Origin: Vermamoeba vermiformis
Lineage: Eukaryota
Direction: 5' to 3'
DNA length: 64,000 nt
Assembly (NCBI GenBank): GCA_045837725.1
Contig: JBEWZL010000200.1
Coordinates: 124,001 to 188,000 of the forward strand
The position numbers and the translations under genes are program-made. Shown here piece by piece: positions 29,986 through 63,844 of this stretch. Within the stretch, counting starts at the first letter, position 1; every line of letters starts with the position of its first letter. Below the pieces are notes generated by a model. The model was given only the letters and a program-made list of their open reading frames with translations, had not been told where the DNA came from and searched no databases.

Positions 29986-32900
29986 CTACATCTTTGAGTC
30001 AAGAATAAAATTGAGTTCTTTGACGACTTGATCCATACTCGGTCGATCATCTGGTGATTGAGCCCAGCACTTGCTGATCAGTTCTGCGACTGTTATGGGA
30101 GTGTTAGGCGGGATCGGCAATCGACCGCCGTCAATGACCATGTTGGCGATCTGCCACGGGTGTTCCAAGTGCGAGTAAGGCATTTGTTGTGACATGATTG
30201 TCCACAAAAGAATGCCAAAGCTGTAAATGTCTGCTCCTTTCTCGTATCGCTTGTTCTCCATGATTTCTATCATTAACATTTTAGTACGTCAAACACTGAT
30301 GAATCAGATCAGCAGATCTGACACGTGTCACCACAAACATCTAATCCATTGACCGTGTCATGGTCATCGATGTTTGTGCCGTGTTGCAATTTAGCGTGTC
30401 AAAAAATGTCACGTGATCAGACTTACCAGGAGCCATGTAAGTAGGTGTGCCAACACCCTTGGTGAACTTCATGGTCACTTCTTCGACAATTGATCGAGCA
30501 GTGCCAAAGTCAGTCAGTTTGACATTCACTGATGCTTCTTTGGCTGTCGATGCAACCAACACATTCTCTGCTTTGATGTCGCGATGAAGAATGTTGTTTG
30601 CGTGCAAGAATTGAAGTGCTTCTGCAACATCCAATGCAATCTTCAGTTTCAATCCTGTGTCCAATGGTCTGCTGTTCAACAGTTCTTGAAGATTGCCTCC
30701 TGAAACGAACTCTGTCAAGATGGCAAGCTTTCCAGGCACTTTTGATGCTCCGATGAACTGCACAATGCATCTGTGGTGCAAGTTCATCATCATTTGCACT
30801 TCGCGGTTGAACTCTTCGAACTGTTGAATGTTCATTTCTTGGAACTACGATAGAAACAGAGTTAGTTCGAGCTTGACTTTTTTTGACACTTTTGACATGT
30901 TGACACGTGTCATTTGGTTTATCATTCACTTACCTTGAGCTTCTTGAAGGCGATCGTTTGACCACGATACTTGGCTTTGTACACAGCACCAAATCCTCCT
31001 TCACCAAGTGCTTCAGTCACACCATCAACTTCATCGATGTCAATCCAAGGTGATGGTTCACTTGCACAAACAAACTCGAGCAATGAGAACTGTTTGAGTT
31101 CAGGAACTTCGACCCACAGTGAGATGTTTGTGCGTGTTGTCATTCTCATTTGCAGCATCAGTGTCACATCGACATAACCTTTGTCGCGAATGTCAATCTC
31201 GAACGGGTCAACAGTGAGCTGGTATTTGGTCGACTGAACTGGATGAAAGTTGACACGAAGACTCTTCTCAAGAAGTCGCTCAACAAGGCCTCGGGACCGT
31301 GTAAGCTTTGCGCGGCTCTGCACTCGGAAGGTGTCTTTGTACATGGAGTCAACTTGCAAGAGATTGCCTTTGGTGCCAAAATCGAACTTTGTGTTTGACA
31401 ACTGAATGGGCAAGTCTTCGATTGGTTTGAGTGAGTAGTCTTCTGGTGCATGCCACTGAGGAAGTGAGAACTGATCGTCTGCTCCGTTCTTTGTGGTCAG
31501 TGTCAGCAGTTCCACTCTGTTCAACAATTGTTCAACTCGTCGTTTGCCTCTGAAATATCTGTACGTCACTGCACCGATTACGATGAAGAGTATGGAGCCA
31601 CCAGTTACAGAAATAACTATCGCGATAATTACGCCTGTCCGCATGTTGGTTAATAGTTGCTCAAAAATGACACGTGTCAAAGTGTCAAAGTGTCATTGCT
31701 TACCTTGCGCCACTGAGGTGTCAGGACAGGTCAATGATACCGTCAAGGCTTGTTTTCCTGATCTTTCGCTCGTGGAAGTTGTAATAATGCACTCTTTGCC
31801 TTCCGCAACAATGTTCAATTCATCGGTGGATCCGCAAGAGTAGAACAAGAATGTAGTCTCCAGGTGCGACTCTTCATACTCGCTCATGTCAATGGCGATA
31901 GTGCCTCTTGCTTCGATGCATTCTATATCAATTCTATTGCTGTGTTGAATCACCAAGGTGCCGCCATCAAGCAGAAGTTCTATCGTGAAAAACGTTAAAA
32001 AAAACGGAAGGGGCTTGGCGTTGGTTAATGTAACGTACTTTCAAAGTGGTCTGCGTCTCGTAAGTCAACCGTGGCACCTTTGGGGACGCGCAAAAGATTT
32101 TCAACGGGACATCCATTTGTAACTTCGCACGAGTATTGTGCGAGTGAGCAACAAAATTGGTTTGCGCCAATTGAACACCGTGCAGTACTGTTGCCCGACA
32201 CTCTGAACTGGTCGGGGAGTTGAATGCAGCCAGAAAACGAATTGCCCGTGATATTACTGGTAAGTGTTAGCGTCGTATTAAGGGTAAAGGGCCTTACATG
32301 TTCATCACATTGCCTAAATTGGTAAGTGAAGGCAGTGTTCCGCTGAGCTGGTTCGATGAGAGGTCTCTGTCGTGATATTATATTATGGGAAAGTGGCACA
32401 CGTTAAATAAATTTTTCTTACAAGTGCTCTAGGGCTCGCAAGTTGGCTATTTGACGCGAGACTGTGCCAGTTAGGGAATTTCGCGATAGATCGCTAACAC
32501 ATTAAAACAAGTTAGGTCGTGTGGTACTATAAGAATATATTGGTCTTACATCCGACGAACGCGTTGTAAACTAAAGAGACTGTGCGGGATTGTGCCACTC
32601 AATTGATTGCGACTTAGATCCAGGGCATTGATGCTTCGCAGGGAATCGAACATTGACGGGATCTCGCCCGTGAACATATTGCCTGCGAGGCTCCTGTCAT
32701 GGATTAGTTAGCACGAGAATACTAATGAATGGACTATGGATCATCCTTACAAATAGTGCAAGCTGAAGATTTCTCCCAAGTACGGCGGAATAGGCCCTTC
32801 AATTCGATTGCGCTCGACATTCCTTTAATCGGTCAATTAACGTGATAATTTGATAATTTAGAACACTTACAGAACTTCTAATCCCAAAAGATTAACGAAG

Positions 32901-35900
32901 CTTTGTGGGATGGTACCGGTCAAGCCGTTGAAACTAACATCGCTTAAAAAGGAGTTAAAAAGGTTCAATAGAAATCAGCTTCAACGTACAGTTCACGAAG
33001 GTTTCGAAGTGCTTCTAATTGTGGTGGGATCTGACCGACAAAAGAATTGAACGACAGGTCCCTAGTTAACGTTAGAATGCGGGAAAAACCCTCGTACTAA
33101 ATAACTTACAGTACTTCAAGACTGATCATAGCAGCGATCGATGGCGGAATAATTCCCGTGAAAAAATTTTGGTGCAGTCGACTAAAACGTGTTAGAGATA
33201 AATGAGTACTTTAATAGTATATAAATAAGTACTTACAGTTCTCTTAGTCTTCGTGGTCGCGATGTTATTGTCGGAAGCATTCCTCCGAATAAATTGTTGG
33301 ACAGATCCAGCACCTCAAGCGAGCCAGTAAATAGCGCTTGACCGATGCCACCTGATAAACTGTTGAAGTCCACTCGCCTGCAAAAGTAAATGCTATATTA
33401 GGAAGCTGATAAAGTTAAGTGATTTGACGTACAATGTCTGCAAGTTGGTGAAGGGCGGGAATTCGGGCAGTGGTCCCGTGAGATCATTATGCGATAGGAT
33501 GCTATAATGCAGTTATTATAAATAACGTTGTTGGCGTTCATATTTCTTACACGTTTTGTATTGTTCGCGTGATCAGTGAAGATGGAATTTGACCCACCAA
33601 GTGGTTCTTCGAAACGTCACTAAAAATTATCGATTATTAATTAAGTGTCATACTAGCCGAATGATTAGTAGCCTTACAAGTGTCTCAAGTTTGAACTAAT
33701 AGGAAAATTCGGCAATCTTCCGACGAGATCGTTGTTCGACAGATCACTGACAAAAAAGTTAGCGGCTGACCGGATCTGACACTCACTTTGACGTACAGCA
33801 TTGATAAGAGCGGAAACAGCAAATAATCTTCGTTAAATGTGCCTGAAATCTGGTTTGACGCCAGCGAGCTTTTAAAAATGTTAGACGTTGTCCCGAAAGA
33901 CAGCAAACAAAAACGTACATTGAAGTCAATCGAGCAGGCAATTGCGGCAATGTTCCCGAAAAAAAGTTGTTCGACAGGTCACTATAAATATATATAAGTT
34001 ATTGAACGAATGGATATTGTAACCATGTGACGTACATCAGATCCATAATGGACGCTTGAATGTTTGGAATTTGGCCACTCAGTCGATTATTCTCTAACAT
34101 CCTGAACACATTCGTGAGCTTAGCGAGTCATCATTGGAGTGTACATACAACATAGAGGCCGATATCGTTCGATTTGTAATCGGCAAAGTTCCTTCGAGCA
34201 TGTTGTGGGACAGATCACTAGCGGACAAGTTAGCAGCAGTCATAGGACATAAGAATATTCTTACATTAATCTTGCATTATTGAGCATCCCCATAGGAATA
34301 GTTCCAGTCAACTTGTTGTTGCCGAGATTACTAATTAAAAAAAATTTGTTAGTAGCGATCCAGATCGGATCGGATCGCTTACATTTCACTCAACTGAGGC
34401 ATCTGTGCAGCCGTAGCGGGAATTGTTCCTTCAAGTTGATTGGATTGCAATTGAAGTGATGTTAACCTCGTTAAAGCGTGTAATTCCTGCGGAATCGTCC
34501 CTTGCAAAGCATTGAATTGCACTTGACTGTGATACGATAAGCTATAATAGAAAACACTACCTTATACTTACAATGTTTGTAGCTGACGGCAGTTAGTAAA
34601 ATTGAAGAGCGGGCCTTCAAAATTGTTAAATGACGCAGTGCTGTACGATTCAAAAGTCAGCCCCGGAAAAAATTCTAACAATATGTAACACTCACAAAGT
34701 AAACATTTCTGTCATGTCAGCTAAGCTTGCAGGCAATGTGCCACTAAATTGGTTGTTGTCTAGTTGCCTAATATCGTTAAAGTTAAATAAAATAACATTC
34801 GTTGAGTTTCAGCGCTTACATGGCCATTAGGCGAGACCACTTTGAATACTCCTCGGGAATAGTTCCGGTAAATTGATTGTTTTGTACCAAGCTGCACGTA
34901 CGGTTAGATTGAAATATCAAAATAGTCACTACGTACAATTGACCAAGATTTGTCCAGTTACTCAGCGAGGCAGGCAACTGTCCGGTCAGCAAATTGTTAC
35001 GAATCACAAAATCACGCATTTCCACTGCATTTCCAAGTTCATCGGGCAATGTTCCCGAGAACGCATTGTTTCCGATAAGCCTATATAGAAATTTCAAAGG
35101 TCAAAAAAAAACAACGCTCGGACAGATCGAAGTACTTACAAGTCCCTCAAGTTACTGCAATTACCAAGCTCGGGCGGTATTGTTCCACCCATTATATTAT
35201 TATCTAAAATCCTAAACGACATCTATTAGTTGTTTTCATCGTATAAAATCGTTGCGGCTTACAATTGTTGAAGTCGTTGAAGGTTTCCGAAGGTCGCTGG
35301 AATTGAGCCATTGATTCGATTGTTTCTAACGTTTCTAAAAGAGCGGTATTAAACACTATATATGCAATCGTAGTATTATCGACGTTACATACAATATTTC
35401 CAGGTTCGTTAGATTTCCCATTGCTGCCGGAATAGATCCGAGGAGCAAATTAACACCTTCAATATTACTATATGGGTTCGTATTATTAGTAACAAGTATC
35501 ATACGTGGGTCAGCAAAAGATGGTTCCGACATACAAAATTTTAAGGCTCCGCAAGTTTCCAATTGCGTTCGGTATAGCCCCTGTAATATAAGCACGTTGC
35601 ATATACCTAAAAAAAGCGTTAATGAAATACTAATATAGCCGTATTGTTGTATTGCTTACAGCTCTTCAAGTGTTGCGATGGTAAAAATGTTCGGAAATCG
35701 TGTTATCCGAGCATCAGTAATATCACTACAAGGGTGTTATTAATTAAATTATAAAATAGATTGGTAGGGTGTTAACGTACAGTACTCTGAGACTCGGCAA
35801 ATCTCCGATGCAATCTGGCAGCTCGCGGGACCGACCGGCGTAACCAGGAAGTGACAGTACTTCCAAATTAGGCAAGTCGCAAAGAGGATCCTCGTCAAGC

Positions 35901-36832
35901 TCGCCAACGTAGGAAGGTGCAATACTGAATGATAAATATTTAGTAATTAATTGGAAAAATTTTTGCAAAGCTTACAGGCTTCGCAGATTTCTGAGGCTCG
36001 AATTTGGCAGCGACCTAATGCCGGTTGGCAGAGTACTATAATAATGATTAATCGTTATTAACATCGGCCGATATAACAGGTTAGTGTATGGCTTACAGTA
36101 CTTCCAAAGCTGGAAACGAAGTGCTAAATTGGCGCGGTAGATTTCTAAGTGCCGTATTTCCAGAAAGTATCCTAAAAATATGATAATATATAAGAAAATC
36201 ATGTGATACGGTAAGAAGTGCAATATAATATCTACATACAGTCTTGTTAATCGATTTAAGACCAGAATACTTCGGATCGTTTGGTCATTAAAGTCGGTAT
36301 TAACTAGTTCCCTGCAATAAACATAAGATGAACTGCTTGGTAAAGAAAAATATAAACTTACAGCGCTTGCAATGTATTTTGAAGATTAACTAGAGTTGCT
36401 GGTAAGGCTCTAACTCCGATTGAATTAACAACCCTATTCAATAATAAGTGAGTCTTTAAGTCGGATGTTAGCGCTGTTTCTCGACTTACAAAGACCGCAA
36501 ACTTGTAAGATTTCCTAACGAATCCGGAACCACAGTGACAGATCCTGCAACGCGCCTAAATCCAGATTTAGCTTTGAAATTAATAACATCAAAAGGGTTA
36601 CTTACAACTCGGTTACTACGGAATAATTGTTGCTATCCTCGCAAGTCACTTCTTGCCAAGTGCAGGGATCGCTTGTATTTAGATTTGTGCTTGGTCGAGG
36701 TTGAAATGGCGGATTTAATGCTTGTAAATCTGTAAAAAATTCGTTCTCTTGAGGCAGTAGTGCAGCTGAAATTAAATGTGTGATTGATAATAAAATAAAC
36801 GAGATCAAAACACGATCTTTTCCATTTTTCAT
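29986..36832 (-). CDS. LRR receptor kinase RK1 (signal peptide, LRR-NT, >30 LRRs, Cys-rich cap, TM, beta-rich linker, TKL kinase)
   Basis: Signal peptide, then DPCTWQEVTC (LRRNT). Many LRR exons fit LxxLxLxxNxLxGxIP. TM GVIIAIVISVTGGSILFIVIGAVTY. Kinase motifs GEGGFGAVY, IAFKK, HRDIKAEN, DFG, GTPTYMAPE. Confidence 0.92.
30319..31696. repeat. Intronic palindrome TGACACGTGTCA, three copies in RK1 (30319, 30901, 31668) with flanking half-sites
   Basis: A perfect 12-bp palindrome in each of the three introns around the TM/linker and kinase exons, accompanied by TTTGACAC/AAGTGTCA half-sites. Confidence 0.9.
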
Positions 36833-42000: not shown

Positions 42001-42307
42001 CGTGTGTCAGTCAAGAATTTACATTTCTACAGTGTATTATGTACGATAATTAATATTATAATTTTTTTTAGCAGCGTCCGATCCGGTGAAAAAGTCAGCG
42101 GACGAAGTTATTGAAGAGTTGAAACAGCGTTACAACAAGAGTCAAGACAAATTCGAAGCTCAATATGCAATGGATGAAGATGGCTTTGTTTGGCAGCCGT
42201 TTCTGGACAAAAAATTGCTGTTGGAAGTTGATCGAGGAGATTTACACAAAATTCTATTTGATACGTGGGAAAAATTCAACCATTACACTACGAGTTACGT
42301 AGATTAG
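39098..42307 (+). CDS. F-box protein with a degenerate G-alpha/Arf-like GTPase fold; interrupted in this assembly by a duplicated/low-complexity block
   Basis: Spliced reading IPILFIGPPSSGLAHLF...YLSLLPPEILTRVLALTNLPDLLNISTLIKSF...DEFWRRYF (F-box)...FEEMTYFVTCVDTSRFD...FPIMVVFTRMDKLTEKL. Confidence 0.6.
39176..39275 (+). repeat. ~100-bp direct repeat, copy 1 (copy 2 at 40946-41044)
   Basis: AGTGATTGTT(A)TGGTTCAGATGTCGCGG...GCAAATTCAAGGCA occurs twice, with 3 substitutions and 1 indel. Confidence 0.95.
39577..40945. repeat. Low-complexity block: poly-T/AT-rich tract followed by ~0.8 kb of aperiodic purine (G/A) sequence; probable read/assembly artifact
   Basis: T-run and TTA-rich tract at about 39577-39740, and almost pure G/A from about 40150 to 40945 with no stable repeat unit. 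Confidence 0.85.
40946..41044 (+). repeat. ~100-bp direct repeat, copy 2
   Basis: Matches 39176-39275. Confidence 0.95.
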
Positions 42308-42432
42308 CCACTACAATTTCGAGTATTGTATAAACGGCAATATTGTTACTTTCGCAAACAAGACCAGCCATTCAATGACGGCGCCAAAAGATATTGAAAT
42401 TAATAGGTTTTAAAATTATGTACAATTAATGG

Positions 42433-48400: not shown

Positions 48401-49216
48401 AGTTGTCAGGCAGGCGTTGGATAGTTGGCGTCTGAATCAAGAACCTATTCATAATATATATTACATTATGCTAGCGCATAAGTATATACCGAGCACTTCT
48501 TACAGTCGACGCAGATTCGTTAGTACTGTCACACTATTCAGCGTGTTGTTCGTGAAACGAGTACCGGCAATATTTCTAATTTAGGTTAATTTTCCAACGT
48601 TTAATCAAATACTACGAAGCATTAAAGGCTTACAGTTCCACGAGAGAGTTTTTGATTAAGGCAATCTCATCTGGCAAAACAGATAAAAGTGTATTCGTAA
48701 AATCCCTGTAATATCATATTATATACATATAAAACATTAAAAATGAATTTGTGGTATTACATCGACAATTAATGGTTTGATTATACTTACAAACTCGTTA
48801 CTTGCGTGAGGTTGCCTACCGACGCTGGAAGTGTACGAATATTCGCTTGGGCTAAACGGCTTATGATGCATATTAATTAAGATAATAATATTTAACGAAT
48901 GATTCAGCTTTTGTTGAACAGATTCGGCGCCCAAATTTAATTTTTAATTGGAAAATCGAAATTAACCTATTTGCGCCTTTTAATGCAGCATAAGCCGTAC
49001 TTACATTGATATAACGTTATTGCCATCGTTAGAACAGGTTACACCAGACCAAGAACAAGGATCCGATGCGTTTGTTCCAACCTGGATGAACTGTTCATTT
49101 ACCGCCAGAAGGTCAACAAAAAAATTATATTCTTCGCTAACCAAAGCATGCACGGTATTTATTCCACCAACGAAGAGGAGGAAGATCAGAATTGGAATAC
49201 CGTTCCAAATCCGCAT
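42433..49216 (-). CDS. LRR receptor kinase RK2 (apparent +1 frameshift at 43613-43615; sequencing error or pseudogene)
   Basis: Signal peptide MRIWNGIPILIFLLFVGG, then DPCSWSGVTC, an LRR exon array, TM, and a kinase nearly identical to RK1. One extra A in TCGAAAGTAT relative to the paralog frame (S/T-K-Y-Q-L-T). Confidence 0.88.
42778..44053. repeat. Intronic palindrome TGACACGTGTCA, three copies in RK2 (42778, 43286, 44042)
   Basis: One perfect copy in each of the three corresponding introns. Confidence 0.9.
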
Positions 49217-49632
49217 CTCCACATCCACTGATTAAATATACAACTCGTTGTTGTGAACCGTAAGTATCAACAATAGATAATATCAATTTTTACCATAATT
49301 TACGGAATATTTGACGAGTGATTGACAGCTTGTTTCTCGTACGAGGATCGCGAAACAGAAGGTTCGGAGGAGAAACTATCATTGCGACTACGAGCAATAT
49401 ATTTGAAATACCATCATGTTATCGGTATACTACCAGCGACTGTTTTGCATGAGCTGGATCGACATCACAATGGTAAGCCTGAAATATCGTATTCCTTTTC
49501 CGGTGAGACGTCAAGTCAAGTCAAGTCAAAAAATTCGTAACAATTATAGCGTGCTGATTTGAACACTGCAGCACAAAGCTTGGTGTAGTGCAAACGCACA
49601 TGAAGAAGGGGAGCAGACAGTGAATTTTACGG
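49217..49632. promoter_or_regulatory. Putative bidirectional promoter between divergently transcribed RK2 and RK3
   Basis: About 415 bp separates the two head-to-head start codons. Regulatory function is inferred from position only. Confidence 0.5.
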
Positions 49633-52600: not shown

Positions 52601-55600
52601 TACCATTGCTCCTCCAATTACTGACTTTGCGAAAGTTCGTTTGCATCCAATCTTCTCACGGGCACATTTCCGATCGAGTACACGCAAATCCCTGGCTTGG
52701 CGACGCTGTAAGATGAGAATTCTATATAGCGCCCTATACTAACGGGTCTTAACTTCAGTGATTTGTCCAATAATGACCTGTACGGCCCGTTCCCGAGAGG
52801 AATTCCGCAGAACCTTCCTTTTCGACATTTAGACGTGTCGCACAATCGAATGAATGGCACGATCCCTTCCGGATTGATTTCACAATCAATTCAGACCTTG
52901 TAAGCTCTCTCCTTACTGTCCGTTTTATATGAAACTAACCGTGACCATATTGTAGAATTTTGTCAAACAATCACTTTGGCGGAACTCTACCGACGTACAA
53001 TTCACTGGCATTCAATTTGCATACATTGTAAGTGGTCCGATACGATATCGTTCAATTCGACGTCAGCGTTAGTGCGCTAATTACTTCAATCAACAGACTA
53101 TTGGACAACAACCGAATCGGAGGAAATGTACCACGTGCCCAATTTTCATTAATGAACCTCGAAGTATTGTACGTGACGTCATATTCGACTTATCAACGGA
53201 ATTAGTTCTTACATTAATTATTCCAGGAACTTGTCTGGCAATCTTTTGCGAGGCAATTTGCCAGCAATTACGCAACGTCTACGTAGATTGCGAGTGCTGT
53301 ACGTAATCTTAATGCATGTCAATAAGCACTCACTAACATTGCTCGTAGTAACATCTCGTTCAATTTTATATCCGGCGTTCTTCCGCCCTCGCTATCGAAC
53401 ATTGTTAATCTCGAAGAGCTGTAAGTATAAGCTCATCGTATCTGAATTTCTAACGTTCGACAGAAACCTATCGGCGAACGACTTTATTGGCACGATTCCT
53501 TCTCAGTTAGGCGCTTTGGCCAGTCTTCGAGTATTGTAAGTTGCAGATGTAAAATCGGTGTATTGATTAAATCTGTCTAGGAACTTGGCCGTGAATCACT
53601 TAACTGGCGGAATCCCGATTAGTTTTGCAGGCCATGAGTCCCTGACGTCACTGTAAGAAAAGAACGGCACCTCTATTAATGATTAACCCGTAAATAGGAT
53701 TCTCAAGTCTAACCAGCTGTCTGGCACTATTCCGAACTACATTTGTGAACTTTTCAATCTTCAACGACTGTAAGAATCCACTCTAAAAATCAGTGCAAAA
53801 TATTAACCGAGCTATTTTTAGTGATTTGTCGGTCAATTATTTCACTGGAACTCTTCCCGAGTCAATAGAACAACTGCGAGGCTTGCACTATCTGTAAGGA
53901 TTACTAACGGTGTCGTTGAAGAGCTCTTCTTAATTGTGCTTAGGGACCTCGGAAAAAATCACATATCGGGCGAGATCCCTGTCAATTTGTTCGCCTTGCA
54001 GCGACTGCGCCGATTGTAAGTCGAACTGACTTAAAATATTCTAATGCGGAGGTGACTAATGCTGATGTAGGGATCTCTCGCAAAACGAACTTTCAGGCAC
54101 TATTCCACAGGAAATATCAAACGCACGCTTGATTGAATGGATAAACTTGTCGCGCAATAAGCTCCAAGGAACTCTGCCTTCATTAATGGGACTAACTGAA
54201 GTCATAGAATTGTACGTACTTGAGATTTCTTAGTAGTCTTCTTCTAACAATCCTTCAGCCATATTGCCTCGAACAATTTAGTCGGCTGCATACAGCTGCC
54301 ACGCATATTTGAAAGTTCTCGGAACAGATCCCACATAGCAGCCTGTTCCATCGACAACAACCGTTTCTGCTGTTCACGCAATGACTACGTGTGCTCTACA
54401 ACAGGTTCGTTGGCTTTTTAATCGCTGCACACGTGCTTTTGATTCTAATCTCGTCATTACAATCCAGATTATTGCCCACTAGATGAAGCTTTGATAATTG
54501 CCAGTGGAGACCGCGTTCGAATCAAACCTCGCTTCCATTATGACAGTAAGCTTTCAGATGTCTTGACGGCGCTTATTTAACACGTATCAGAGCTTGTCGT
54601 AGAGCAAGGCGGCACTCTTGTGATATTGCCCGAGACAAAGTTAGACATTGAGTGCGTGACGGTACTCGGTACAATTGAAGTTGACGTCAGTGAGTTAGAA
54701 GAAGAGTCTATAGACGTGCCATTTTTGTCGTTCTCGTGCGGTGAGACGGAGAGTATGACTATGACAGCTGTGGGCTTTGGAAAGAAATGCGAAGTTTCTA
54801 GCACGACCGTTCAAAATGCTGGCTCGAAACGAAAGTTCACCGCCAAAGTCCCATGTCCTAACAATTTACTGCCAGAAGGTACGGAGTTGAAACCCATTCC
54901 TTTACAGTCGCTAACATACTGCTGTAGGAACGATCATTGCCATCATCGTGTCAGTTACTGGTGGTTTCATTTTAGTGATTGTAATTGGTGGCGTGACGTA
55001 CAGATATTTCAGAGGCAAACGACGAGTTGAACAACTGTTGAACAGAGTGGAACTGCTGACACTGACCACAAAGAACGGAGCAGACGATCAGTTCTCACTT
55101 CCTCAGTGGCATGCACCAGAAGACTACTCGCTCAAACCAATCGAAGACTTGCCCATTCAATTGTCAAACACAAAGTTCGACTTTGGAACCAAAGGCAATC
55201 TCTTGCAAGTCGACTCCATGTACAAAGACACCTTCAGAGTGCAGAGCCGCACCAAGATTGGTCAGTCCCGAGGACTTGTTGAGCGACTACTTGAGAAGAG
55301 TCTTCGTGTCAACTTTCATCCAGTTCAGTCGACCAAGTACCAGCTCACAGTTGATCCGTTCGAGATTGACATTCGCGACAAAGGTTACGTCGATGTGACA
55401 CTGATGCTGCAAATGAGAATGACAACACGCACAAACATCTCACTGTGGGTCGAAGTTCCTGAACTCAAACAGTTCTCTTTGTTGGAATTCGTTTGTGCAA
55501 GTGAACCATCACCTTGGATCGACATCGATGAAGTTGATGGTGTGACTGAAGCACTTGGTGAAGGAGGATTTGGTGCTGTGTACAAAGCCAAGTATCGTGG

Positions 55601-56465
55601 TCAAACGATCGCATTCAAGAAGCTCAAAGTAAGTCGCCAAGAAGGAATGACACGTGTCAAAAGTGTCATCAAGTGTCAAGCTTGAACTAACTCTGTTTCT
55701 ATTGTAGTTCCAAGAGATGAACATCCAGCAGTTCGAAGAGTTCAATCGTGAAGTGCAAATGATGATGAACTTGCACCACAGATGCATTGTGCAGTTCATC
55801 GGAGCATCAAAAGTGCCTGGAAAGCTTGCCATCTTGACAGAGTTCGTTTCAGGAGGCAATCTTCAAGAACTGTTGAACAGCAGACCATTGGACACAGGAT
55901 TGAAACTGAAGATTGCATTGGATGTTGCAGAAGCACTTCAATTCTTGCACGCAAACAACATTCTTCATCGTGACATCAAAGCAGAGAATGTGTTGGTTGC
56001 ATCGACAGCCAAAGAAGCATCAGTGAATGTCAAACTGACTGACTTTGGCACTGCTCGATCAATTGTTGAAGAAGTGACCATGAAGTTCACAAAAGGCATT
56101 GGCACGCCTACATACATGGCTCCTGGTAAGTCCTACCACATCGCAATATTACACGAACGAGGTACTAACGCATTACAGAAATTCTTGAGAACAAGCGATA
56201 CGAGAAAGGAGCAGACATTTACAGCTTTGGCATTCTTTTGTGGACAATCATGTCGCAACAAATGCCTTACTCGCACTTGGAACACCCATGGCAGATCGCC
56301 AACATGGTCATTGAAGGTAAACGCTTGACCATGCCGCCAACCGCGCCAGTGGCAGTGGCAGAACTGATCAGCAAGTGCTGGGCTCAATCACCAGATGATC
56401 GACCGAGTATGGATCAAGTCGTCAAAGAACTGGATTTAATTATCGAACTTGCAAACGCACACTAA
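49633..56465 (+). CDS. LRR receptor kinase RK3
   Basis: Signal peptide, DVCSWGRVNC, about 31 LRR-bearing exons (50100-54403), TM GTIIAIIVSVTGGFILVIVIGGVTY, and a complete kinase. Confidence 0.92.
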
Positions 56466-59400
56466 ACTATTAAACTCTGTAGCGCAGAAATGCCGTTACA
56501 ATCATAAAAATTTATCTGGAACAAGGTCCGTTACGCTATTTTTACTTTACGTTAAGGTTATAACGACAAAAGTAGAATGTAACTTTAATTAGAACATGGG
56601 AAAAGATGCAAACAAGCTTTGAGAAATTTAATTACGCGGATGTGATTCATTTTTTCGACATGACAGCCCAAATTTTCACTTGTCCTCATCAATGGCATTG
56701 TGTCGCTGTGATAGACGGAACAAACATGCTTTGCCATTAATATAATTAAAAGTATGCGAGATAATTATTTATTTGTGCTCATCCAGCTGGTTTTGCTCTT
56801 GCTCACGAGCTTTACGTTTGGCGATTTAATACCCTCCGAGCAAATATTTTTTGAGGAATTATTACAGCAAAATCCCACGCTGAGCCCGAGTTTAAATCCA
56901 GGCGGATCGATTAATCGACCATGCTCTTGGTTCGGTGTTTTGTGCACCGCCACCGGAGAGAATGCTTTAGAGATGTAAGTAATCATTATTTGCAATGGTT
57001 ACAACGGAGTGGTTGCTTGATTGATCTGATCAACCTAATCCATTTCCTTCTAACACGACTGATTCCATTATTTTCATTAGAAGTTTGATACTACAGTTTA
57101 ATGTCATACCAAACTCTATTGGCAACCTTCAATATTTGAGATCGCTGTAAGTTCCAGATCAGCTCATTTTTATTCCCTTATTTTTCTTTAATAAAATGTA
57201 AATATCAAATTAATAATTATGCTAATGCATCTTGCAGAGGGTTGTCGGGCAGAGTATTGGCAATCCCACCAGAAATTGCAAAACTTAATCAAACACTAGA
57301 AAATCTGTAAGTTACGTTACAGATCCGAAAACAGCATGTTATTTAATCTATTTAAGCTATTTATTATTTAATCTAACTGCCTCATTTGCTAGGAGGATTA
57401 TTGGCGCCCAGATCAACGAGACAGATGTCACTTACTTGCTACCGCTTCGTAATCTTCGCATTTTGTAAGTACTTTACTATTATACGCTTAATATTTAAAT
57501 GCTTACTAATTGTTATTAAGAACACTCACTTTGTCAGTCCCTCGGGTCTCAACTTTACCGCCGAACTTCGCAACGTCTTTTCCGAATCTAGTCGAGCTGT
57601 ACGAAAATTCGTTAATACTCACGAGGATAATGCGTACTAATGCCTTCTCAGACAATTGCCAGAATCCTTAACAGCGTTGCCGGATCTGTCGGCCTTGCAG
57701 AGATTGAGAACATTGTAAGTGGACGACGGTACTAACAACAATTATCTAATTATAAATTATAATTAAGGATATTAAGGGGCTATAACGGTCCCTTCCACGA
57801 CTCAATTTGCAATCTAATAGGATTAGAACGGTTGGATCTCGAAAATGCGCTTGGAGTGAGAAGACTTCCTGAATGCATTAACAGAGTTATTAGCTTGCGA
57901 TATTTGTACGTTAATTATTACAATTACGATGCTCAGAATTTAACTTGGATGCAGGAACTTGGCCCGATCCGGTCTTGGATTTGTTCCAAATGTTTATGGC
58001 TTGCGCTTCCTCGAAGAACTGTAAGAATATTCTTTAATAATGAACGTAACCATTCTTATATTAATAAATTATTTAGGTATTTGAACGAAATTAGGGCCGT
58101 GGGAACAATATCACCTGAAATTGGACAGTTGACGAGCCTCAAAATATTGTACGATAGACAGTACACCATATATGGACAAATAATATGATACTGATACTAA
58201 ATTTATAGCCATGGCGAATCTATGACGACAACTAGCGGACTGCTTCCTGATACGATCGGCAATCTCGTAAATTTGGTCGAATTGTATGCGCCGAAATTGT
58301 TCATTTTATTATCGAACTAACCTAGATATTAAATAGGAAGTTGTTTAATAACGAAATTAGTGGCACTATTCCAGCGAGTATCGGGAATCTTAAACAACTG
58401 AAAATGCTGTAAGAAAAATATCTGGTATACTTATTGTACTAATTTATTTGCCTTCAAGAGATTTACGACAAAATAGCTTAGAGGGCACCATACCGAACGA
58501 AATTGTTAATTGTGAGAGCATGGAAGTTATGTACGTAAATTTTGTTTATTGAATCAAAACGACCAAACTAATCACGATCTTTCGATAACGATAGAATGTT
58601 AGATAATAATATGCTCAGTGGTACAATACCGAATGACTTGGGAAGGCTAAAAAACTTGATGGGCCTACAAATCATAAGCAACGTGCTTGAAGGCACAATT
58701 CCTGCGTCATTAGCGCAGTGTAGCAATCTGTCGCTCATGTAAGCATAATTTAACTCGTCGTATTTAACACGATATGTCTAACGTTATCAGCGCGCTCATG
58801 TCAAATCAACTGACCGGAACATTGCCGCCAGAATTCTCACAGCTGTCAAATCTGGTTCATTTGTAAGTCCATGATTTTCATCGACCTTTTGTTTGACATA
58901 TTGACAGGGTTATGGGCAATAATCTGTTGCATGGCACGATCCCGCGGTCGTACTCGAATCTACGTAAGCTCTGGAGCATGTAAGTACTAGGGCAATGGAC
59001 AGCATGTGTCAAAGTGTCACTAACAAGATTGACACGTGTCACAAACTGCTACCCAGTACAGCGAACAAAATTAACAACCTTTACTTTCAGTCAACTGTCA
59101 TACAATAATTTGGAGGGGTCGCTCATTAGCTTTGCTGAAATGCCAGAACTACGGTCAATGTAAGGGCTTTGAACTTACTCTTATGAATCTGCGACACTAA
59201 CGGCGCTAACAGAACAATGGAATTTAATCGCCTTACGGGCGCCATTCCCGACACATTTTACACCAATACGGTGTTGAGTCACGTTTTCTTGCAAAACAAC
59301 GAATTATCGGGCACTATTCCGCAGTCAATCAGTTTGCTGCCAAGCATATTGGACATGTACGACAAAAAAATTTTAGCATTTTTCAGTGCGCTACTAACCC

Positions 59401-62400
59401 TACTGTCGCAGCAATTTGAGCCGAAACCAACTACGCGGAACAATTCATCCTGCAACCTTTCTAGATAGATCATTAGTACGGCTGTACGTAATTAATAGCT
59501 GCGATTAATCATCGATAATTAACTAATTGATGGCAGCGACTACTCGAACAACTTGCTCGAAGGGCCGTTACCTCCTATTAGATCCGCTGTGCTCAACATG
59601 GTGTACGTCTTTCGATTAGTCAATTTCGGACTAAAAGCAAAATACTAACAATAATTTCGAAGAAATCTTGCAAATAATAGGTTGAACGGTTCAATTGGCC
59701 ATTTCAGTGCATGTGGGCAGTGCGCTACTATGTACGTAAATACTAATATTATTATTCGCTTTATTAATCTTAATCTCTGTATAGTGACCTCTCAAATAAT
59801 TTCTTCGAGGGATCATTGCCTGACCTCAACACAAGGATGACTCAGTTGTACGTAAAACAAGGTTACTTTTTGTTCGCAATTACTAACTCAACTTATTGTA
59901 GCGACCTGTCGCGTAACCAATTAAGCGGAACCATTCCCCAATATTACGTTTCGAACACTCATTTGAATCGATTGTAAGTGCAGGATGTTAATTGACCTCT
60001 AATTAACAAATCTAACGGAGCCTATTTTAGGGTGTTAGCGCATAACAATCTTACTGGAGAACTTTTAACGGACGGTTGGCCTCTGCTGCGGCACGTGTAA
60101 GTAAAATGAAAAATTTAATACGACTACAAAAATAACCCAAAAATAGAGATGTCTCTTATAATCAATTGCAAGGAACCATTCCAAGACGACTTATGGAGGT
60201 TGCCCAAGTTTTGTAAGCATCAGATCTAACTTTTTTTTCGTTTTCGGCCTAACTTATTTACTTAGAATTTTTTCGCATAATCAATTCTCTGGCCCATTTC
60301 CATCAGTATTTATCCGAACAGACTTGGTGCGGATCCATTTTGACAATAATAGGCTCTCAGATCTACTTCGTCCTAGTTTCCTCGATCATCCGAACTTGGA
60401 AATTATGTAAGAACAACACTATTAGCGGCTAATTATTACTTTATTAATGCATTAGCAGGGACCTTTCAAACAACAATTTCCGTGGCATGTTGCCGGCAAT
60501 TACATTATCGCAGCCATCGAAGTTACGAGTGCTGTAAGTCACAATCTTACTTGCCAAATAAGGCAATATTAATATGGTATACTGATAGGCGCATGTCTGG
60601 CAATCGCTTTATGGGCGCAGTTCCGGGCACATTTGCGCTGATGGCGAGCCTCGAGATCCTGTATGTCAAACACAAAATTCTAAGAAATCCTAACTAATGC
60701 TTCTTTTGCAGTGACTTATCGAATAACTTACTGAATGGTCAATTACCGCCACAATGGGGCTCATTTAGACACTTGCGTGAATTGTACGGTGAAAATTCTA
60801 GCACCCGCGCGTACCGCTAACTTTTTGCATCTAGGTACCTGTCTGATAATCGATTTACTGGAAACTTCCCGGCAACATTTGATGCTCTTGAGTCCCTCGA
60901 AGTACTGTACGTATAGCTATTATATTATTTTGTAACCTGTCTTCTCACCAATCGCATCAGTGACGTGTCCAACAACAATTTTGATGGACCACTGCCCGGC
61001 GCTCTGTTTAACTTGTTGACTTTGCAATCATTGTAAGACCGTTAAATACAGTAGTAATGTATTGATTATTAATAATTTTGCAGGAACATGGCTCACAATC
61101 GATTCACCGATCAGATCCACATTACTTTGTTCCAACTCTTGCTTACGCTTACGGACATGTATGGCCTTAAAGCTTAGCATACTAACACCTTACTAACCTA
61201 TTATAGTAATTTGAGCCACAACTTGTTCACGGGCACACTGCCGACAACATTGTTCAATTTGCATCGTATCAGACGAATGTACGTTCACCTCGGCAATCCG
61301 TTCTTGCATAATGTACTCATTATTATAACTTCGTAGTGATCTATCGTATAATTCTTTGACGGGCACCATCCCTAGTGCAGTATCAAATATGAGAACTCTC
61401 GAAGAACTGTAAGCCGATAATTTTTCACAGTCTCCTTGCGCGGAATGCTAATTAAACATCTTGTTAGATCGCTATCGGCAAATCAACTGAGCGGAACAAT
61501 ACCTGTATTGTCTGGATTGAAAAACTTGGCCAAATTGTACGTCAACATCAATGACCTGGTCATAAGCAAGGCTCTAACCTTTCCTTATTTAGTAATGTCG
61601 ATTCAAACTCGTTGACTGGCTGTCTGCGGCTACCAACTCGATTCTTAGCCTCAAATAACTCTACGACGTACACAGGTCAATGTTCAATCGAAGGAAATCC
61701 AATCTGTTGCAGTCCAGAGCAGTACACGTGCACGACTAGCGGTACGAACTATGGAGCTAGAGTCAATGTCCGTGTGCTAAACAAGAGTTATCTTTGCAGG
61801 TTGCAATGCAGACCGTGTGTTACATGCCAGTCAAGACCGGGCCTGGGTTATAGTCCGCACTGAAGGCTTTCCCTATGACAGTAAGTTGTCATATTAAGCA
61901 CAATTGTCATTATAACTCATCAACTGCTTTGCAGAAATCATTGTGGACCCGGGAGCAGTGCTGACATTGCCGACAGCTTTCAGTGGCTCAGTCTACTGTG
62001 CAAATGTCACGGGTGTCATCGAAATACTGCCCGTACACAGCGAGACATATGCTCCTACGGTCGTAACTCACACTTGCGGCGTGTTCTCTCCGAGTTCAGT
62101 GTTCATGAGGGACGAGCGATGTCGCATTACAAATCGTGCAGTGAGTGCGCAAGGTGATGCAACAACGTACACGTATGACTGGCAGTGCACGCAGCCTGAG
62201 CCAGCTGTGTCGACTGGAGTGGTTGTAGCTGCTGTAGTTACGAGTGTTGGTGGCACTATTTTGTTCGTGGTGATTGGCATCATTTCCGTGCGTTATGTAC
62301 GAGGCAAACGACGAGTCGAACAACTGTTGAACAGAGTGGAACTGCTGACACTGACCACAAAGAACGGAGCAGACGATCAGTTCTCACTTCCTCAGTGGCA

Positions 62401-63466
62401 TGCACCAGAAGACTACTCGCTCAAACCAATCGAAGACTTGCCCATTCAGTTGTCAAACACAAAGTTCGACTTTGGCACCAAAGGCAATCTCTTGCAAGTT
62501 GATTCCATGTACAAGGACACGTTCACGATGCAAGCCAAAGCAAAGCCGAGCAACTCCCGCGGCTTAATTGAACGACTCATCGAGAAGACTGTGCACGTTC
62601 AGTTCCATCCAGTTCAGTCGTCAAAGTTCCAACTCACCGTGGACCCAGCTGAAATTGATCTTCGCGGCAAAGATGAAGTTAGTGTGACACTGATGCTGCA
62701 AATGAGAATGACAACACGCACAAACATCTCACTGTGGGTCGAAGTTCCTGAACTCAAACAGTTCTCTTTGCTCGAGTTTGTTTGTGCAAGTGAACCATCA
62801 CCTTGGATTGACATCGATGACGTCAACGACATTAGCGAGCCACTTGGTGAAGGAGGGTTTGGTGCTGTGTACAAAGCCAAGTACCGTGGACAACAAGTGG
62901 CGTTTAAGAAACTCAAGGTAAGTTGTGACAATTAATGAAATGACACGTGTCAACACGTCAAAAGTGTCATTTACTAATCGCTGTCATGAACAGTACCAGG
63001 AAATGGACCTACCATTGCTTGAAGAGTTCAACCGCGAAGTGCAAATGATGATGAACTTGCACCACAGATGCATTGTGCAGTTCATCGGAGCATCAAAAGT
63101 GCCTGGAAAGCTTGCCATCTTGACAGAGTTCGTTTCAGGAGGCAATCTTCAAGAACTGTTGAACAGCAGACCATTGGACACAGGATTGAAACTGAAGATT
63201 GCATTGGATGTTGCAGAAGCACTTCAGTTCTTGCACGCGAACAACATTCTTCATCGTGACATCAAAGCAGAGAATGTGTTGGTTGCATCGACAGCCAAAG
63301 AAGCATCAGTGAATGTCAAACTGACTGACTTTGGCACTGCTCGATCGATTGTCGAAGAAGTGACCATGAAGTTCACCAAGGGTGTTGGTACTCCCACTTA
63401 CATGGCTCCTGGTAAGTCTGATCACGTGGCACTTTTTGACACCGTGAAAAATATTGACACGTGTCA
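55648..63466. repeat. Intronic palindrome TGACACGTGTCA copies in RK3 (55648) and RK4 (59030, 62941, 63455)
   Basis: Perfect copies, all intronic, mostly with adjacent AAGTGTCA/TTTGACAC half-sites. Confidence 0.9.
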
Positions 63467-63844
63467 TACGTCGTACATGGTACACTATTGATCATCGTTT
63501 GCGTGTTCATCCAAGCATATATTACCCAATTAGGCAAGTGCTTACTAACATTCACCCCTGCAGAAATCCTCGACAACAAGCAGTACGAACGCAGTGCAGA
63601 TATTTACAGCTTTGGCATTCTGTTGTGGGTGATTATGACGCAAAAGATTCCGTACATTGACGTCAAGAACTCGTGGGACATTGCGCGCATGGTACTTGAG
63701 GGCAAACGATTGCACATTCCTGGCTCAATGTCGATCACAGTCAAGCAGCTGATCGAGAAGTGTTGGGCACAGGAACCGAGTGACAGGCCAACTATTGATC
63801 AAGTCGTGCAGCAGCTGAATTCAATTTTGATTTCAAAAATGTAA
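56754..63844 (+). CDS. LRR receptor kinase RK4
   Basis: Signal peptide, RPCSWFGVLC, LRR exon array (about 57080-61741), TM GVVVAAVVTSVGGTILFVVIGIISV, and a complete kinase with a more divergent last exon. Confidence 0.92.

What the first reader, a model, noticed from the sequence alone, without database searches (positions are those of the whole stretch)
29986..63844. Candidate diversifying receptor system: four giant LRR receptor kinases with variable cassette-built ectodomains and a constant signalling module
Seen: four paralogs share one architecture (signal, LRRNT, roughly 35 plant-type 24-aa LRRs, Cys-rich cap, TM, beta-rich linker, kinase). The ectodomains are hard to align beyond the LRR consensus. 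From just after the TM (RGKRRVEQLLNRVELL...) long stretches are almost identical in nucleotide sequence, including synonymous sites. Established: variable-LRR/constant-effector layouts occur in immune and self/non-self receptors such as plant LRR-RLKs, brown-algal LRR-GTPases with single-LRR exons, and lamprey VLRs. The kinase end (KLTDFG...FTKGxGTPxYMAPE) resembles amoebozoan transmembrane kinases. Inference: this is a protist recognition-receptor family whose sensors diversify while the output domain is actively homogenised.
Basis: partly seen in the sequence, partly recalled or inferred. Interest (0 to 1): 0.88.

Follow-up and report, generated by a model that had tools for sequence, protein, structure and literature searches.

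The report
Four protist LRR kinases, shared output homogenised
Four neighbouring receptor-kinase genes of an unnamed protist have very old, strongly diverged leucine-rich-repeat sensor halves, while their intracellular signalling halves are kept almost identical by repeated gene conversion; this pattern is already known from plant receptor clusters and is not a cassette-shuffling system.

Summary
The four genes are real: A 36832..29986 (-), B 49216..42433 (-), C 49633..56465 (+), D 56754..63844 (+). My models give 36-39 exons and 1536-1577 aa each. All 146 introns are GT..AG, 129 of them phase 2, and most exons encode one 24-aa plant-type LRR.

In the LRR ectodomain synonymous sites are saturated (pS 0.78-0.83). 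From the TM to kinase exon 2, dS is 0.10-0.47, and 150 nt are identical in all four genes.

Three controls point to gene conversion rather than selection or artefact:
- An A-type relative from a metagenome (L001) is closer to A than A's paralogs are before the TM. It is more distant than the paralogs in the module, and A-L001 dS there is 0.86-1.14.
- The 61 informative sites support all three possible splits, in clusters (P<1e-4).
- Short-read unitig depth is about 3x higher over the module, and the variants seen there are another paralog's letters.

"Cassette-built" is not supported. The ectodomains are collinear (28 of 42 intron positions shared by all four) and no LRR exon pair exceeds 67% identity.

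The linker folds as an ASH/MSP-like sandwich and the kinase is TKL-like. Relatives carry the same module behind Kelch-Ig or EGF ectodomains. B has a frameshift. Two RNA runs showed almost no expression.

The parts
29986..36832 (-). Gene A: LRR receptor kinase, 38 exons, 1574 aa in my model
   Evidence: Dynamic-programming splice model and curation; all introns GT..AG, 33 of 37 phase 2; Pfam LRR_1/LRR_8 and Pkinase
42433..49216 (-). Gene B: LRR receptor kinase, 36 exons, 1567 aa if the frameshift is ignored; as written it stops after 1256 aa
43616..43616 (-). One extra base in B's linker (ASH-like) exon relative to A, C and D; this shifts the frame
   Evidence: 4-way DNA alignment, coordinate. 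Neither X3 nor X4 contigs report an indel at this place, in a bin where both have depth
49633..56465 (+). Gene C: LRR receptor kinase, 37 exons, 1536 aa; its cap is split by an extra intron (54405-54467), as in D
51825..51897 (+). Decayed LRR exon in C. The open LRR-like frame is homologous to an exon of A but lacks an in-phase GT donor, so my model skips it
   Evidence: Sequence reading
56754..63844 (+). Gene D: LRR receptor kinase, 39 exons, 1577 aa; pre-TM and TM-linker parts are fused in one 983-nt exon
   Evidence: P0002 equals the ORF of this exon
29986..31634 (-). Homogenised module of A: TM, juxtamembrane helix, ASH/MSP-like domain, kinase (3 exons, 2 introns)
   Evidence: Sliding-window identity, dS
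42433..44022 (-). Homogenised module of B
54928..56465 (+). Homogenised module of C
62299..63411 (+). Homogenised part of D, from the RGKRR codons just after the TM to the end of kinase exon 2. D's TM and its last exon (63564-63844) are not homogenised
30617..30766 (-). Core of kinase exon 2 (A coordinates): 150 nt identical in all four genes. The flanking windows from 30816 to 30467 are 94-100% identical
31213..31362 (-). Less homogenised sub-block inside the ASH-like domain (64-82% in most pairs, A-C 82-98%). Here D keeps the type of its ortholog-like relative P0003
31060..31407 (-). Intracellular beta-sandwich between TM and kinase (A coordinates), ASH/PapD-like/MSP fold
   Evidence: AF2 with a 34-row alignment, mean pLDDT 78.9. 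Foldseek: OCRL ASH 3qbt E 9.6e-6, CEP192 PapD-like 6fvi, Hydin 2e6j, MSP 1m1s. No Pfam match
30427..30844 (-). Kinase exon 2 of A (HRDIKAEN, DFG, start of APE)
   Evidence: Pkinase 7.7e-31, PK_Tyr_Ser-Thr 1e-27

Best explanation
This is a tandem cluster of four single-pass receptor kinases: two on the minus strand, then two on the plus strand. It sits in an intron-rich protist genome.

Each protein has about 36 plant-type 24-residue LRRs (mostly one per 63-78-nt exon, separated by introns of about 52 nt in phase 2). These are followed by a Cys-rich cap, a small extracellular beta domain, one TM helix, a long juxtamembrane helix, an ASH/MSP-like beta-sandwich and an RD-type TKL-like kinase.

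The four ectodomains are old duplicates that have kept exon order but diverged to saturation. They presumably bind different ligands (inferred).

The intracellular module has been overwritten repeatedly by short-tract non-allelic gene conversion among all four copies, in both orientations. The receptors therefore share one nearly identical output module and probably feed one downstream pathway (inferred).

Conversion stops at the TM, where homology is lost, and it is patchy inside the module. Part of the ASH-like domain, D's TM and D's last exon have escaped it.

Shown: the gene structures as models, the divergence contrast, and the signatures of concerted evolution. Inferred: ligand diversity, kinase activity, signalling through a common partner, and any recognition or immune role.
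For: 1. Divergence contrast. Ectodomain pS is 0.78-0.83. TM-to-kinase dS is 0.10-0.47. Kinase exon 2 has dS 0.10-0.24.

2. Ortholog control. In the pre-TM exon, metagenome locus L001 is closest to A: 65.3% nt, against A-B 54.1, A-C 51.4 and A-D 40.9. In the TM-linker exon it is further from A (75.4%) than A's paralogs are (88.2, 92.4, 81.6). In kinase exon 2 it is 86.4% against 95.9-97.8. ML trees: the pre-TM tree groups A with L001 (bootstrap 72); in the constant-module tree the paralogs are 0.04-0.15 apart while L001 sits on a branch of 0.26.

3. Synonymous sites are not constrained as such. A-L001 dS is 1.14 (TM/JM/ASH), 0.86 (kinase exon 2) and 1.55 (last exon).

4. A second ortholog-like protein, P0003, matches D at 70% aa in the pre-TM tail plus TM, where D-A/B/C is 26-36%. 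In the juxtamembrane stretch D is identical to its paralogs and differs from P0003.

5. Mosaic signal. The 61 two-by-two informative sites split 25 AC|BD, 22 AD|BC and 14 AB|CD. They are clustered along the sequence: 26 changes of split against 39.6 expected, with 0 of 10000 permutations as low.

6. The intron between kinase exons 1 and 2 is 64-83% identical between paralogs. The 182 positional ectodomain intron pairs have mean 0.545, max 0.69. Random intron pairs have mean 0.527, max 0.68.

7. Not an assembly artefact. X3 unitig depth is about 570-920 over the ectodomains and 2239-2595 over the constant modules. X3's 'other letters' at C:55388 and C:55520 are exactly gene A's letters. Illumina adapter fragments at contig ends show that X3 is short-read data.

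8. Architecture.
Against: No transcript evidence supports my exon models. Two RNA runs with the same species label laid only 14 and 9 reads on the 20 kb tested, all near the kinase, so expression and splicing are unverified. One acceptor (56179) is an exception: it is matched by spliced reads that seem to come from another paralog.

B carries a frameshift, so at least one copy may be a pseudogene.

L001 is a 3.4-kb metagenome contig. Its orthology to A rests on about 280 nt of the pre-TM exon (bootstrap 72), and its species is unknown.

GC3 is not clearly raised in the module (0.49-0.51 vs 0.43-0.47), so there is no GC-biased-conversion footprint.

The last intron is poorly conserved (26-68%). 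Tracts therefore often end at exon edges, which pure conversion does not predict and which may need selection as well.

The whole genome was not available, so the number of copies exchanging sequence is unknown.
Confidence: 0.8

Rival explanations
1. One recent replacement. A single unequal crossover or segmental event recently pasted one 3' module onto four old ectodomains, with no ongoing conversion.
For: The boundary lies at or near the TM in all four genes, and the paralogs are star-like in the constant-module tree.
Against: Divergence within the module is very uneven: 100% blocks sit next to 64-82% blocks, and dS ranges from 0.10 to 0.47 by region. All three incompatible splits are supported, in clusters. 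D's TM, part of its ASH-like domain and its last exon keep an older type, shared with P0003 or lying outside L001. The 5' boundary differs between genes: A/B/C lie within the TM exon, D lies after the TM.
Confidence: 0.08
2. Purifying selection or codon bias alone. The kinase is simply more constrained, also at silent sites, and no exchange between copies is needed.
For: The module is strongly conserved at protein level across species as well: A-L001 aa identity is 0.86-0.96 and dN/dS 0.04-0.08. Exons are more uniform than the last intron.
Against: Silent sites in the same exons are diverged between A and L001 (dS 0.86-1.55), but only 0.10-0.47 between paralogs. Paralogs are closer than the ortholog-like relative only inside the module. 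One module intron is homogenised.
Confidence: 0.04
3. Assembly or polishing artefact. Reads from different kinase copies were collapsed, making the copies look identical.
For: Near-identical repeats of 1.2-1.6 kb are the kind of sequence that polishing can homogenise.
Against: Short-read unitigs of run X3 have about 3x the depth over the module (2239-2595 vs about 570-920), as expected if the same 31-mers truly occur in 3-4 copies. The variants seen are paralog-specific letters that the assembly also carries. Contigs of X4, a DNA run from another study, match B's module at 99% or more where they cover it. X3 may be the data the window was assembled from, so it is not fully independent.
Confidence: 0.03
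4. Active diversification by exon (cassette) shuffling or somatic assembly, as in brown-algal LRR-ROCO genes, Tetrahymena 90-bp-exon LRR genes or lamprey VLRs.
For: One LRR per symmetric phase-2 exon is the gene structure that permits shuffling (Ectocarpus 72-nt exons in passages of PMC3341825; Tetrahymena phase-2 arrays in passages of PMC6564038). C has one decayed LRR exon, and exon fusions differ between copies.
Against: Exon order and intron positions are conserved: 28 of 42 positions are shared by all four genes and 9 by three. The best exon pair is 67% identical and non-positional pairs average 37%. The genes are complete and are not flanked by cassette arrays. The only joint in DNA contigs is a 19-nt intron indel.
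Confidence: 0.05

Closest known systems
Tandem plant receptor-like kinase clusters with gene conversion (e.g. the Arabidopsis OAK cluster; passages of PMC3136440 read)
   Same: Tandem LRR-containing receptor kinases in which gene conversion and illegitimate recombination between paralogs give segment-wise identity next to highly diverged extracellular segments. The OAK paper reports an identical 2.7-kb conversion tract between two cluster members.
   Different: The kinase here is not RLK/Pelle-like by similarity ranking (CTR1 131 bits vs IRAK4 about 102 for relative P0001). An ASH/MSP-like domain lies between TM and kinase. Here the homogenised part is the intracellular module, whereas the OAK tract covers the extracellular part. 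The host is a protist and the genes have about 37 introns.
Protist LRR receptor kinases: oomycete LRR-RKs and the 'others' class across EukProt (PMC3268121 abstract; PMC10463195 passages; PMC13091385 section 10)
   Same: A plant-like LRR ectodomain, a TM and a non-plant kinase clade in non-plant eukaryotes. This fusion is thought to have arisen several times.
   Different: None of the passages I read mentions an intracellular ASH/MSP-like domain, one-LRR-per-exon structure or domain-limited concerted evolution. Whether this family is among the 916 sequences of PMC13091385 could not be checked because supplements are closed.
Ectocarpus type I LRR exons in LRR-ROCO and LRR-kinase genes (PMC3341825 passages; PMC11378527 seen only in the search listing)
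   Same: 24-aa LRRs each encoded by a 72-nt exon in candidate receptors with a constant signalling domain.
   Different: In Ectocarpus ROCO genes the LRR domains of paralogs could not be aligned, and exon shuffling is inferred. Here the paralogs are collinear and show no recent exon copies.
[quoted passage not shown]
   Same: Extreme phase-2 bias (129 of 146 introns here) with the junction codon split between neighbouring LRR exons. Some arrays are fused to protein kinase domains.
   Different: The exon unit is 90 bp there against about 72 nt here. Tetrahymena shows thousands of young, nearly identical exons; here the exons are old.
ASH / PapD-like / MSP domains (OCRL, CEP192, Hydin, VAP)
   Same: Same predicted fold for the linker (Foldseek E 1e-5 to 1e-3, target-normalised TM 0.53-0.70 for single-domain entries).
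   Different: No sequence-level family match. Placement between a TM helix and a kinase was not found in the papers searched. No binding partner is known.

Membership tests
Plant-type LRR-RLK (LRR ectodomain + RLK/Pelle kinase) | 24-residue plant-specific LRR consensus LxxLxLxxNxLxGxIPxxLxxLxx in tandem | tested here: met
   Per-position consensus over 16 ungapped blocks x 4 genes: L1, L3, N6, L8, G10, I12, P13, L19, L22. Pfam LRR_1 1.7e-14 and LRR_8 2.8e-11 on a 4-LRR exon.
Plant-type LRR-RLK (LRR ectodomain + RLK/Pelle kinase) | N-terminal cap LRRNT_2 with paired cysteines | tested here: inconclusive
   PF08263 scores 15.8 bits, below the 20.7 cut-off, on A exon 1; there is no hit on C exon 1. 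The CxWxGVxC-like motif is visible in all four genes.
Plant-type LRR-RLK (LRR ectodomain + RLK/Pelle kinase) | Kinase belongs to the RLK/Pelle (IRAK) clade | tested here: not met
   By similarity ranking only, with no tree. For the full-length relative P0001 the best PDB match is CTR1 (131 bits), then EGFR, DLK/MLK and LRRK2. IRAK4 scores about 102 bits and no plant RLK appears in the best 60. Kinase exon 2 gives the same picture.
Concerted evolution by gene conversion among tandem paralogs | Paralogs within a genome are more alike than orthologs in the converted segment, and the reverse holds in flanking segments | tested here: met
   L001 against A-D by region, trees, P0003 against D.
Concerted evolution by gene conversion among tandem paralogs | Homogenisation includes silent and non-coding sites | tested here: met
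   dS is 0.10-0.47 between paralogs and 0.86-1.55 against L001. The intron at kinase exons 1/2 is 64-83% identical against a random level of 0.53. The last intron is only partly homogenised.
Concerted evolution by gene conversion among tandem paralogs | Mosaic of incompatible phylogenetic partitions, spatially clustered | tested here: met
   25/22/14 sites support the three splits; 26 changes observed vs 39.6 expected; 0 of 10000 permutations as low.
Exon-shuffled single-repeat-exon receptors (Ectocarpus ROCO, Tetrahymena LRR) | One repeat per exon with symmetric intron phase | tested here: met
   107 of 150 exons are 60-78 nt, 59 are exactly 72 nt, and 129 of 146 introns are phase 2. These are my models, not transcripts.
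Exon-shuffled single-repeat-exon receptors (Ectocarpus ROCO, Tetrahymena LRR) | Evidence of recent exon duplication or reordering between or within paralogs | tested here: not met
   The maximum exon-pair identity is 67%. 60 of 153 best hits are positional counterparts. Intron positions are conserved.
Somatically assembled LRR receptors (VLR-like) | Incomplete germline gene plus flanking LRR cassettes; rearranged DNA copies | tested here: not met
   All four genes are complete from ATG to stop. There are no cassette arrays in the window. The only joint in DNA contigs of X3/X4 over 42400-62399 is a 19-nt intron indel. Contigs cannot exclude rare rearrangements.
ASH / PapD-like / MSP fold | Seven- to eight-stranded Ig-like beta sandwich matching solved ASH/MSP domains | tested here: met
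   Model pLDDT 78.9. Of the 10 top-ranked Foldseek hits, 9 are OCRL ASH, CEP192 PapD-like, Hydin PapD-like or Chlamydomonas ciliary central-apparatus chains, and the tenth is a mouse sperm central-apparatus chain. This is fold level only.

The most novel reading that the evidence does not exclude
The TM / juxtamembrane helix / ASH-like / TKL-kinase unit may be the common chassis of a large, undescribed protist receptor-kinase superfamily, onto which different sensors have been mounted. The sensors seen are LRR here, Kelch propeller plus Ig in 12 of 34 aligned relatives, and EGF or DUF4215 in others. On this reading, gene conversion keeps the chassis uniform across many loci, not only these four. 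Spliced RNA reads from an unseen paralog match the last exon at 97% or more. Highly diverged sensors would then all report to one co-adapted partner. That would be a germline-encoded recognition repertoire analogous to plant PRR clusters, evolved independently.
Probability: 0.25. Interest if true: 0.7.

Novelty: new variant of a known kind. Interest (0 to 1): 0.45.

Why it matters
The finding gives a clean, quantified non-plant example of domain-limited concerted evolution in a receptor-kinase cluster. The sensor halves are saturated at silent sites, while the output halves are exchanged between copies, including copies in inverted orientation.

It also defines a receptor-kinase architecture (ectodomain, TM, ASH/MSP-like domain, TKL kinase) that I did not find described in the searches made. 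Metagenome relatives carry the same module behind other ectodomains.

If the ASH-like domain is a docking site, it suggests how many different sensors could share one downstream partner.

The finding does not reveal a new diversification mechanism.

Tried and rejected
Supplementary tables of the papers were closed and not requested, so I could not check whether this family is in published LRR-RK lists.

- The search for homologous proteins with the TM-linker exon ('longer') gave a single hit, P0001.
- The protein-atlas search gave only a 0.76 hit to a vertebrate TM cluster, which I treat as uninformative.
- The single-sequence AF2 model was poor (pLDDT 45) and I replaced it with the alignment-based model.
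- GC3 as a footprint of GC-biased conversion gave no clear signal.
- RNA-seq support for the gene models: runs X22 and X24 laid 14 and 9 reads on 20 kb, and 26 and 27 of 30 bins had no depth. There is therefore no test of splicing or of ectodomain/kinase combinations.
- Taxon identification: the neighbouring genes (four Zn2Cys6 genes, a BTB gene, an EXPERA gene) and the intron signals do not settle the lineage. Organism names in the run list are coded.
- The first-pass gene models skipped many 72-nt exons. The retrained model still needed six manual corrections, guided by the paralog alignment.
- Pfam found nothing for the Cys cap, the extracellular pre-TM domain or the linker.

Full report
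**What is there.** Stop-to-stop ORFs and Pfam scans showed kinase and LRR pieces on both strands between 29986 and 63844. Introns have clear signals: donor T|GTA[AC]GT, a CTAAC-like branch site and a YAG acceptor.

I wrote a dynamic-programming splice model and retrained it on its own short introns. I then corrected six places by hand, guided by the paralog alignment and the raw sequence. The resulting models are:

| Gene | Coordinates | Strand | Exons | Length |
|---|---|---|---|---|
| A | 36832..29986 | - | 38 | 1574 aa |
| B | 49216..42433 | - | 36 | 1567 aa, ignoring the frameshift |
| C | 49633..56465 | + | 37 | 1536 aa |
| D | 56754..63844 | + | 39 | 1577 aa |

All 146 introns are GT..AG and 129 are phase 2. 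The median intron length is 52-54.5 nt. Of the 150 exons, 107 are 60-78 nt (59 are exactly 72 nt) and 19 are 120-147 nt. These are predictions. No transcript supports them, except that spliced RNA reads from what seems to be another paralog end exactly at the acceptor I placed at 56179.

**Architecture.**
- The N-terminus is hydrophobic, with a weak LRRNT_2 match (15.8 bits, cut-off 20.7).
- There are about 35-37 LRR-sized units whose per-position consensus is the plant-specific 24-mer. Pfam gives LRR_1 at 1.7e-14.
- A Cys-rich cap and an extracellular domain of about 90 aa follow. Neither has a Pfam match.
- One TM helix follows.
- An AlphaFold model of the 233-aa TM-linker exon, built with 34 aligned relatives, has mean pLDDT 78.9. 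It shows a long helix (residues 2-48) and then a beta sandwich. The single-sequence model had been poor (pLDDT 45).
- Foldseek against the PDB puts the sandwich with ASH/PapD-like/MSP domains: OCRL 3qbt (E 9.6e-6), CEP192 6fvi, Hydin 2e6j, MSP 1m1s and VAP.
- The kinase has the G-loop, VAIK-type Lys, HRD, DFG and APE motifs. By similarity it is TKL-like. The full-length relative P0001 scores best on CTR1 (131 bits), then EGFR, DLK/MLK and LRRK2, with IRAK4 at about 102 bits (exon 2 alone).

**The observation.** blastn between the oriented genes finds only the 3' 1.1-1.6 kb and nothing in the ectodomains. On a codon alignment of my models:

| Region | aa identity | Silent-site divergence |
|---|---|---|
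| LRR ectodomain | 39-45% | pS 0.78-0.83 (saturated) |
| Cap and pre-TM domain | lower | saturated |
| Juxtamembrane + linker | 85-98% | dS 0.18-0.47 |
| Kinase exon 2 | 95-100% | dS 0.10-0.24 |
| Last exon, among A, B, C | 83-87% | dS 0.34-0.52 |
| Last exon, D vs the others | 55-61% | dS about 2 |

In 50-column windows of a genomic alignment, 150 nt of kinase exon 2 are identical in all six pairs, and several other windows are at 98-100%. A block inside the ASH-like domain is only 64-82% identical.

**Not cassettes.** The four proteins align collinearly. Of 42 distinct intron positions, 28 are shared by all four genes, 9 by three, 2 by two, and 3 are unique.

I compared 153 LRR-sized exon units all against all. 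The highest nt identity was 67%. Positional pairs average 0.47 (n=216) and all other pairs 0.37 (n=11412). For 60 of 153 units the best match is the positional counterpart in a paralog.

So there are no young exon copies and no reordering. The differences between copies are small: some exon fusions, an extra intron in the cap of C and D, and one decayed LRR exon in C (51825-51897) that lacks an in-phase donor.

Positions on the concave face (x of LxxLxLxxN) are the least conserved between paralogs (0.21-0.27), against 0.35-0.46 for non-consensus convex positions. This fits divergence of binding surfaces but is weak evidence.

**Why gene conversion.** A scan of metagenome contigs with the TM-linker exon returned two loci.
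- L002 shows the same single-LRR exons, cap, pre-TM domain and TM.
- L001 (3389 nt) carries the end of the cap, the pre-TM exon and the whole module of a relative.

Nucleotide identity of A to L001 and to its paralogs, by region:

| Region | A-L001 | A-B | A-C | A-D |
|---|---|---|---|---|
| Pre-TM exon | 65.3% | 54.1% | 51.4% | 40.9% |
| TM-linker exon | 75.4% | 88.2% | 92.4% | 81.6% |
| Kinase exon 2 | 86.4% | 97.8% | 96.9% | 95.9% |

In the last exon D is the outlier: 64-66% to A, B and C, while L001 is 75-79% to them.

ML trees agree. A groups with L001 in the pre-TM exon (bootstrap 72). In the module the paralogs are 0.04-0.15 apart and L001 sits on a branch of 0.26. In the last exon D groups with L001 (bootstrap 86).

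The same exons are not silent-site constrained. A-L001 dS is 1.14, 0.86 and 1.55 in the TM/JM/ASH part, kinase exon 2 and the last exon.

A second relative, protein P0003, is D-like. It is 70% identical to D in the pre-TM tail plus TM, where D is 26-36% identical to A, B and C. In the juxtamembrane stretch, however, D matches its paralogs exactly and differs from P0003. In the less homogenised ASH sub-block, D shares P0003's residues.

Within the module, 61 two-by-two informative sites support all three possible splits (25, 22, 14) in spatial clusters: 26 changes against 39.6 expected, with 0 of 10000 permutations as low.

The intron between kinase exons 1 and 2 is 64-83% identical between paralogs. 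The 182 positional ectodomain intron pairs are at the random level (0.545 vs 0.527). The last intron is only partly similar, at 26-68%.

Together these are the classical signatures of repeated, patchy, non-allelic gene conversion. It has occurred since the split from the L001 lineage and includes exchange between inverted copies.

**Artefact check.** I laid two RNA and two DNA runs on 42400-62399.
- X3 carries Illumina adapter fragments at contig ends. It may be the assembly's own data.
- Its unitig depth is about 570-920 over the ectodomains and 2239-2595 over the modules. This is expected if the same words truly occur in 3-4 copies.
- Its variant letters at C:55388 and C:55520 are gene A's letters.
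- Neither X3 nor X4 reports an indel at B's extra base (43616). The frameshift therefore stands as assembled: B stops after 1256 aa.
- X4 comes from another study. It matches B and most of C at 99% or more, at low depth.

**Expression.** X22 and X24 are RNA runs with the same species label, and 46-48% of each was read. They laid 14 and 9 reads, all near the kinase, and most run on into unlike sequence. B, C and the D ectodomain are thus essentially silent in those samples.

**Relatives and novelty.** An exhaustive HMMER search of 1.84 billion representatives with the TM-linker exon gave 62 hits at E<=1e-3, 32 at E<=1e-10 and 4 at E<=1e-30. I aligned 34 sequences (three from the window and 31 hits). 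Of these, 12 carry Kelch repeats, 7 Ig_3, 1 EGF_CA and 1 DUF4215 in front of the same module, and 5 include the kinase. LRR-type relatives are probably under-represented, because gene callers miss 72-nt exons.

Non-plant LRR receptor kinases are known (PMC3268121 abstract; PMC10463195 passages; PMC13091385 section 10). Single-LRR exons are known (PMC3341825 and PMC6564038 passages). Gene conversion in tandem RLK clusters is known (PMC3136440 passages).

Two full-text searches for an ASH/MSP/PapD-like domain in receptor kinases, or for Kelch/LRR transmembrane kinases in Amoebozoa, found nothing relevant. In one search, three papers held the terms and none concerned receptor kinases with such a domain. 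In one search there was one paper, the TMK survey. That is a limited search, and supplements were closed.

**Verdict.** The 'cassette-built, diversifying' half is not. This is a new variant of a known kind: a previously undescribed receptor-kinase architecture showing textbook domain-limited concerted evolution.

The whole genome, earlier scan notes and cluster membership were not available.

Noticed in passing
window 30320, 30902, 31669, 42779, 43287, 44043, 55649, 62942, 63456 (module introns); 59031 (D ectodomain intron); 3769 and 9706 (outside the genes); L001:1275: A 12-nt palindrome, TGACACGTGTCA, often flanked by extra TGTCA/TGACA half-sites. The 10-nt core has 15 matches with up to 1 mismatch, against 1.1 expected. 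It sits in 9 of the 11 introns of the homogenised modules, and in the homologous intron of relative L001 although the rest of that intron differs. It could be a regulatory site or a recombination-prone palindrome; this is untested.
   Followed up: partly
window 14430-15449, 17206-17865, 20456-21178, 22791-23546 (all -): Four tandem paralogs with a Zn(2)-Cys(6) binuclear cluster (Pfam Zn_clus, 8e-9 and 3e-10 on the two tested). Each is followed downstream by a conserved second ORF (e.g. 13578-14144, 16103-16543, 19297-19806, 21608-22111). This is a second tandem family in the same window.
   Followed up: partly
window 39187-39280 and 40956-41049: A 94-nt direct repeat (95% identical) flanks about 1.7 kb of extremely purine-rich, low-complexity sequence (GC skew 0.43 in 40001-42000). 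It lies between genes A and B and may be a mobile or satellite element.
   Followed up: partly
window 37216-38652 (-) and 41114-42304 (+): Between A and B lie a 479-aa single-exon ORF with a different, irregular LRR-like pattern (only a weak LRR_EndoS hit, E 0.005) and a gene with an F-box-like N-terminus (no Pfam hit on the piece tested).
   Followed up: no
window 56178/56179: Six RNA reads of X22 join a kinase-exon-2 end that differs from all four genes to the last exon at 97% identity or more. They also carry gene B's letter at 56201. This indicates at least one further, expressed family member outside the window with a near-identical last exon.
   Followed up: partly
window 61912-61932, 48212, 54944, 61864: In X3 contigs, a 19-nt intron deletion and three single-letter variants appear at partial depth (about 300-540 of 780-880). 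These look like allelic variants (heterozygosity or a mixed culture) rather than paralog cross-matches.
   Followed up: no
L001:1127-1183: The relative L001 has an extra 57-nt intron splitting the kinase G-loop (after GEGG). It is absent from all four window genes, so intron gain or loss has occurred within the module.
   Followed up: partly
window 4550-4623 (-), 2352-2807 (+), 12853-13356 (-), 29541-29876 (+): A tRNA-Glu(CTC); a BTB/POZ domain ORF (2.8e-20); a Q/P/G/Y-rich repeat ORF; and an EXPERA (EBP-like) membrane protein exon directly next to gene A's 3' end.
   Followed up: no
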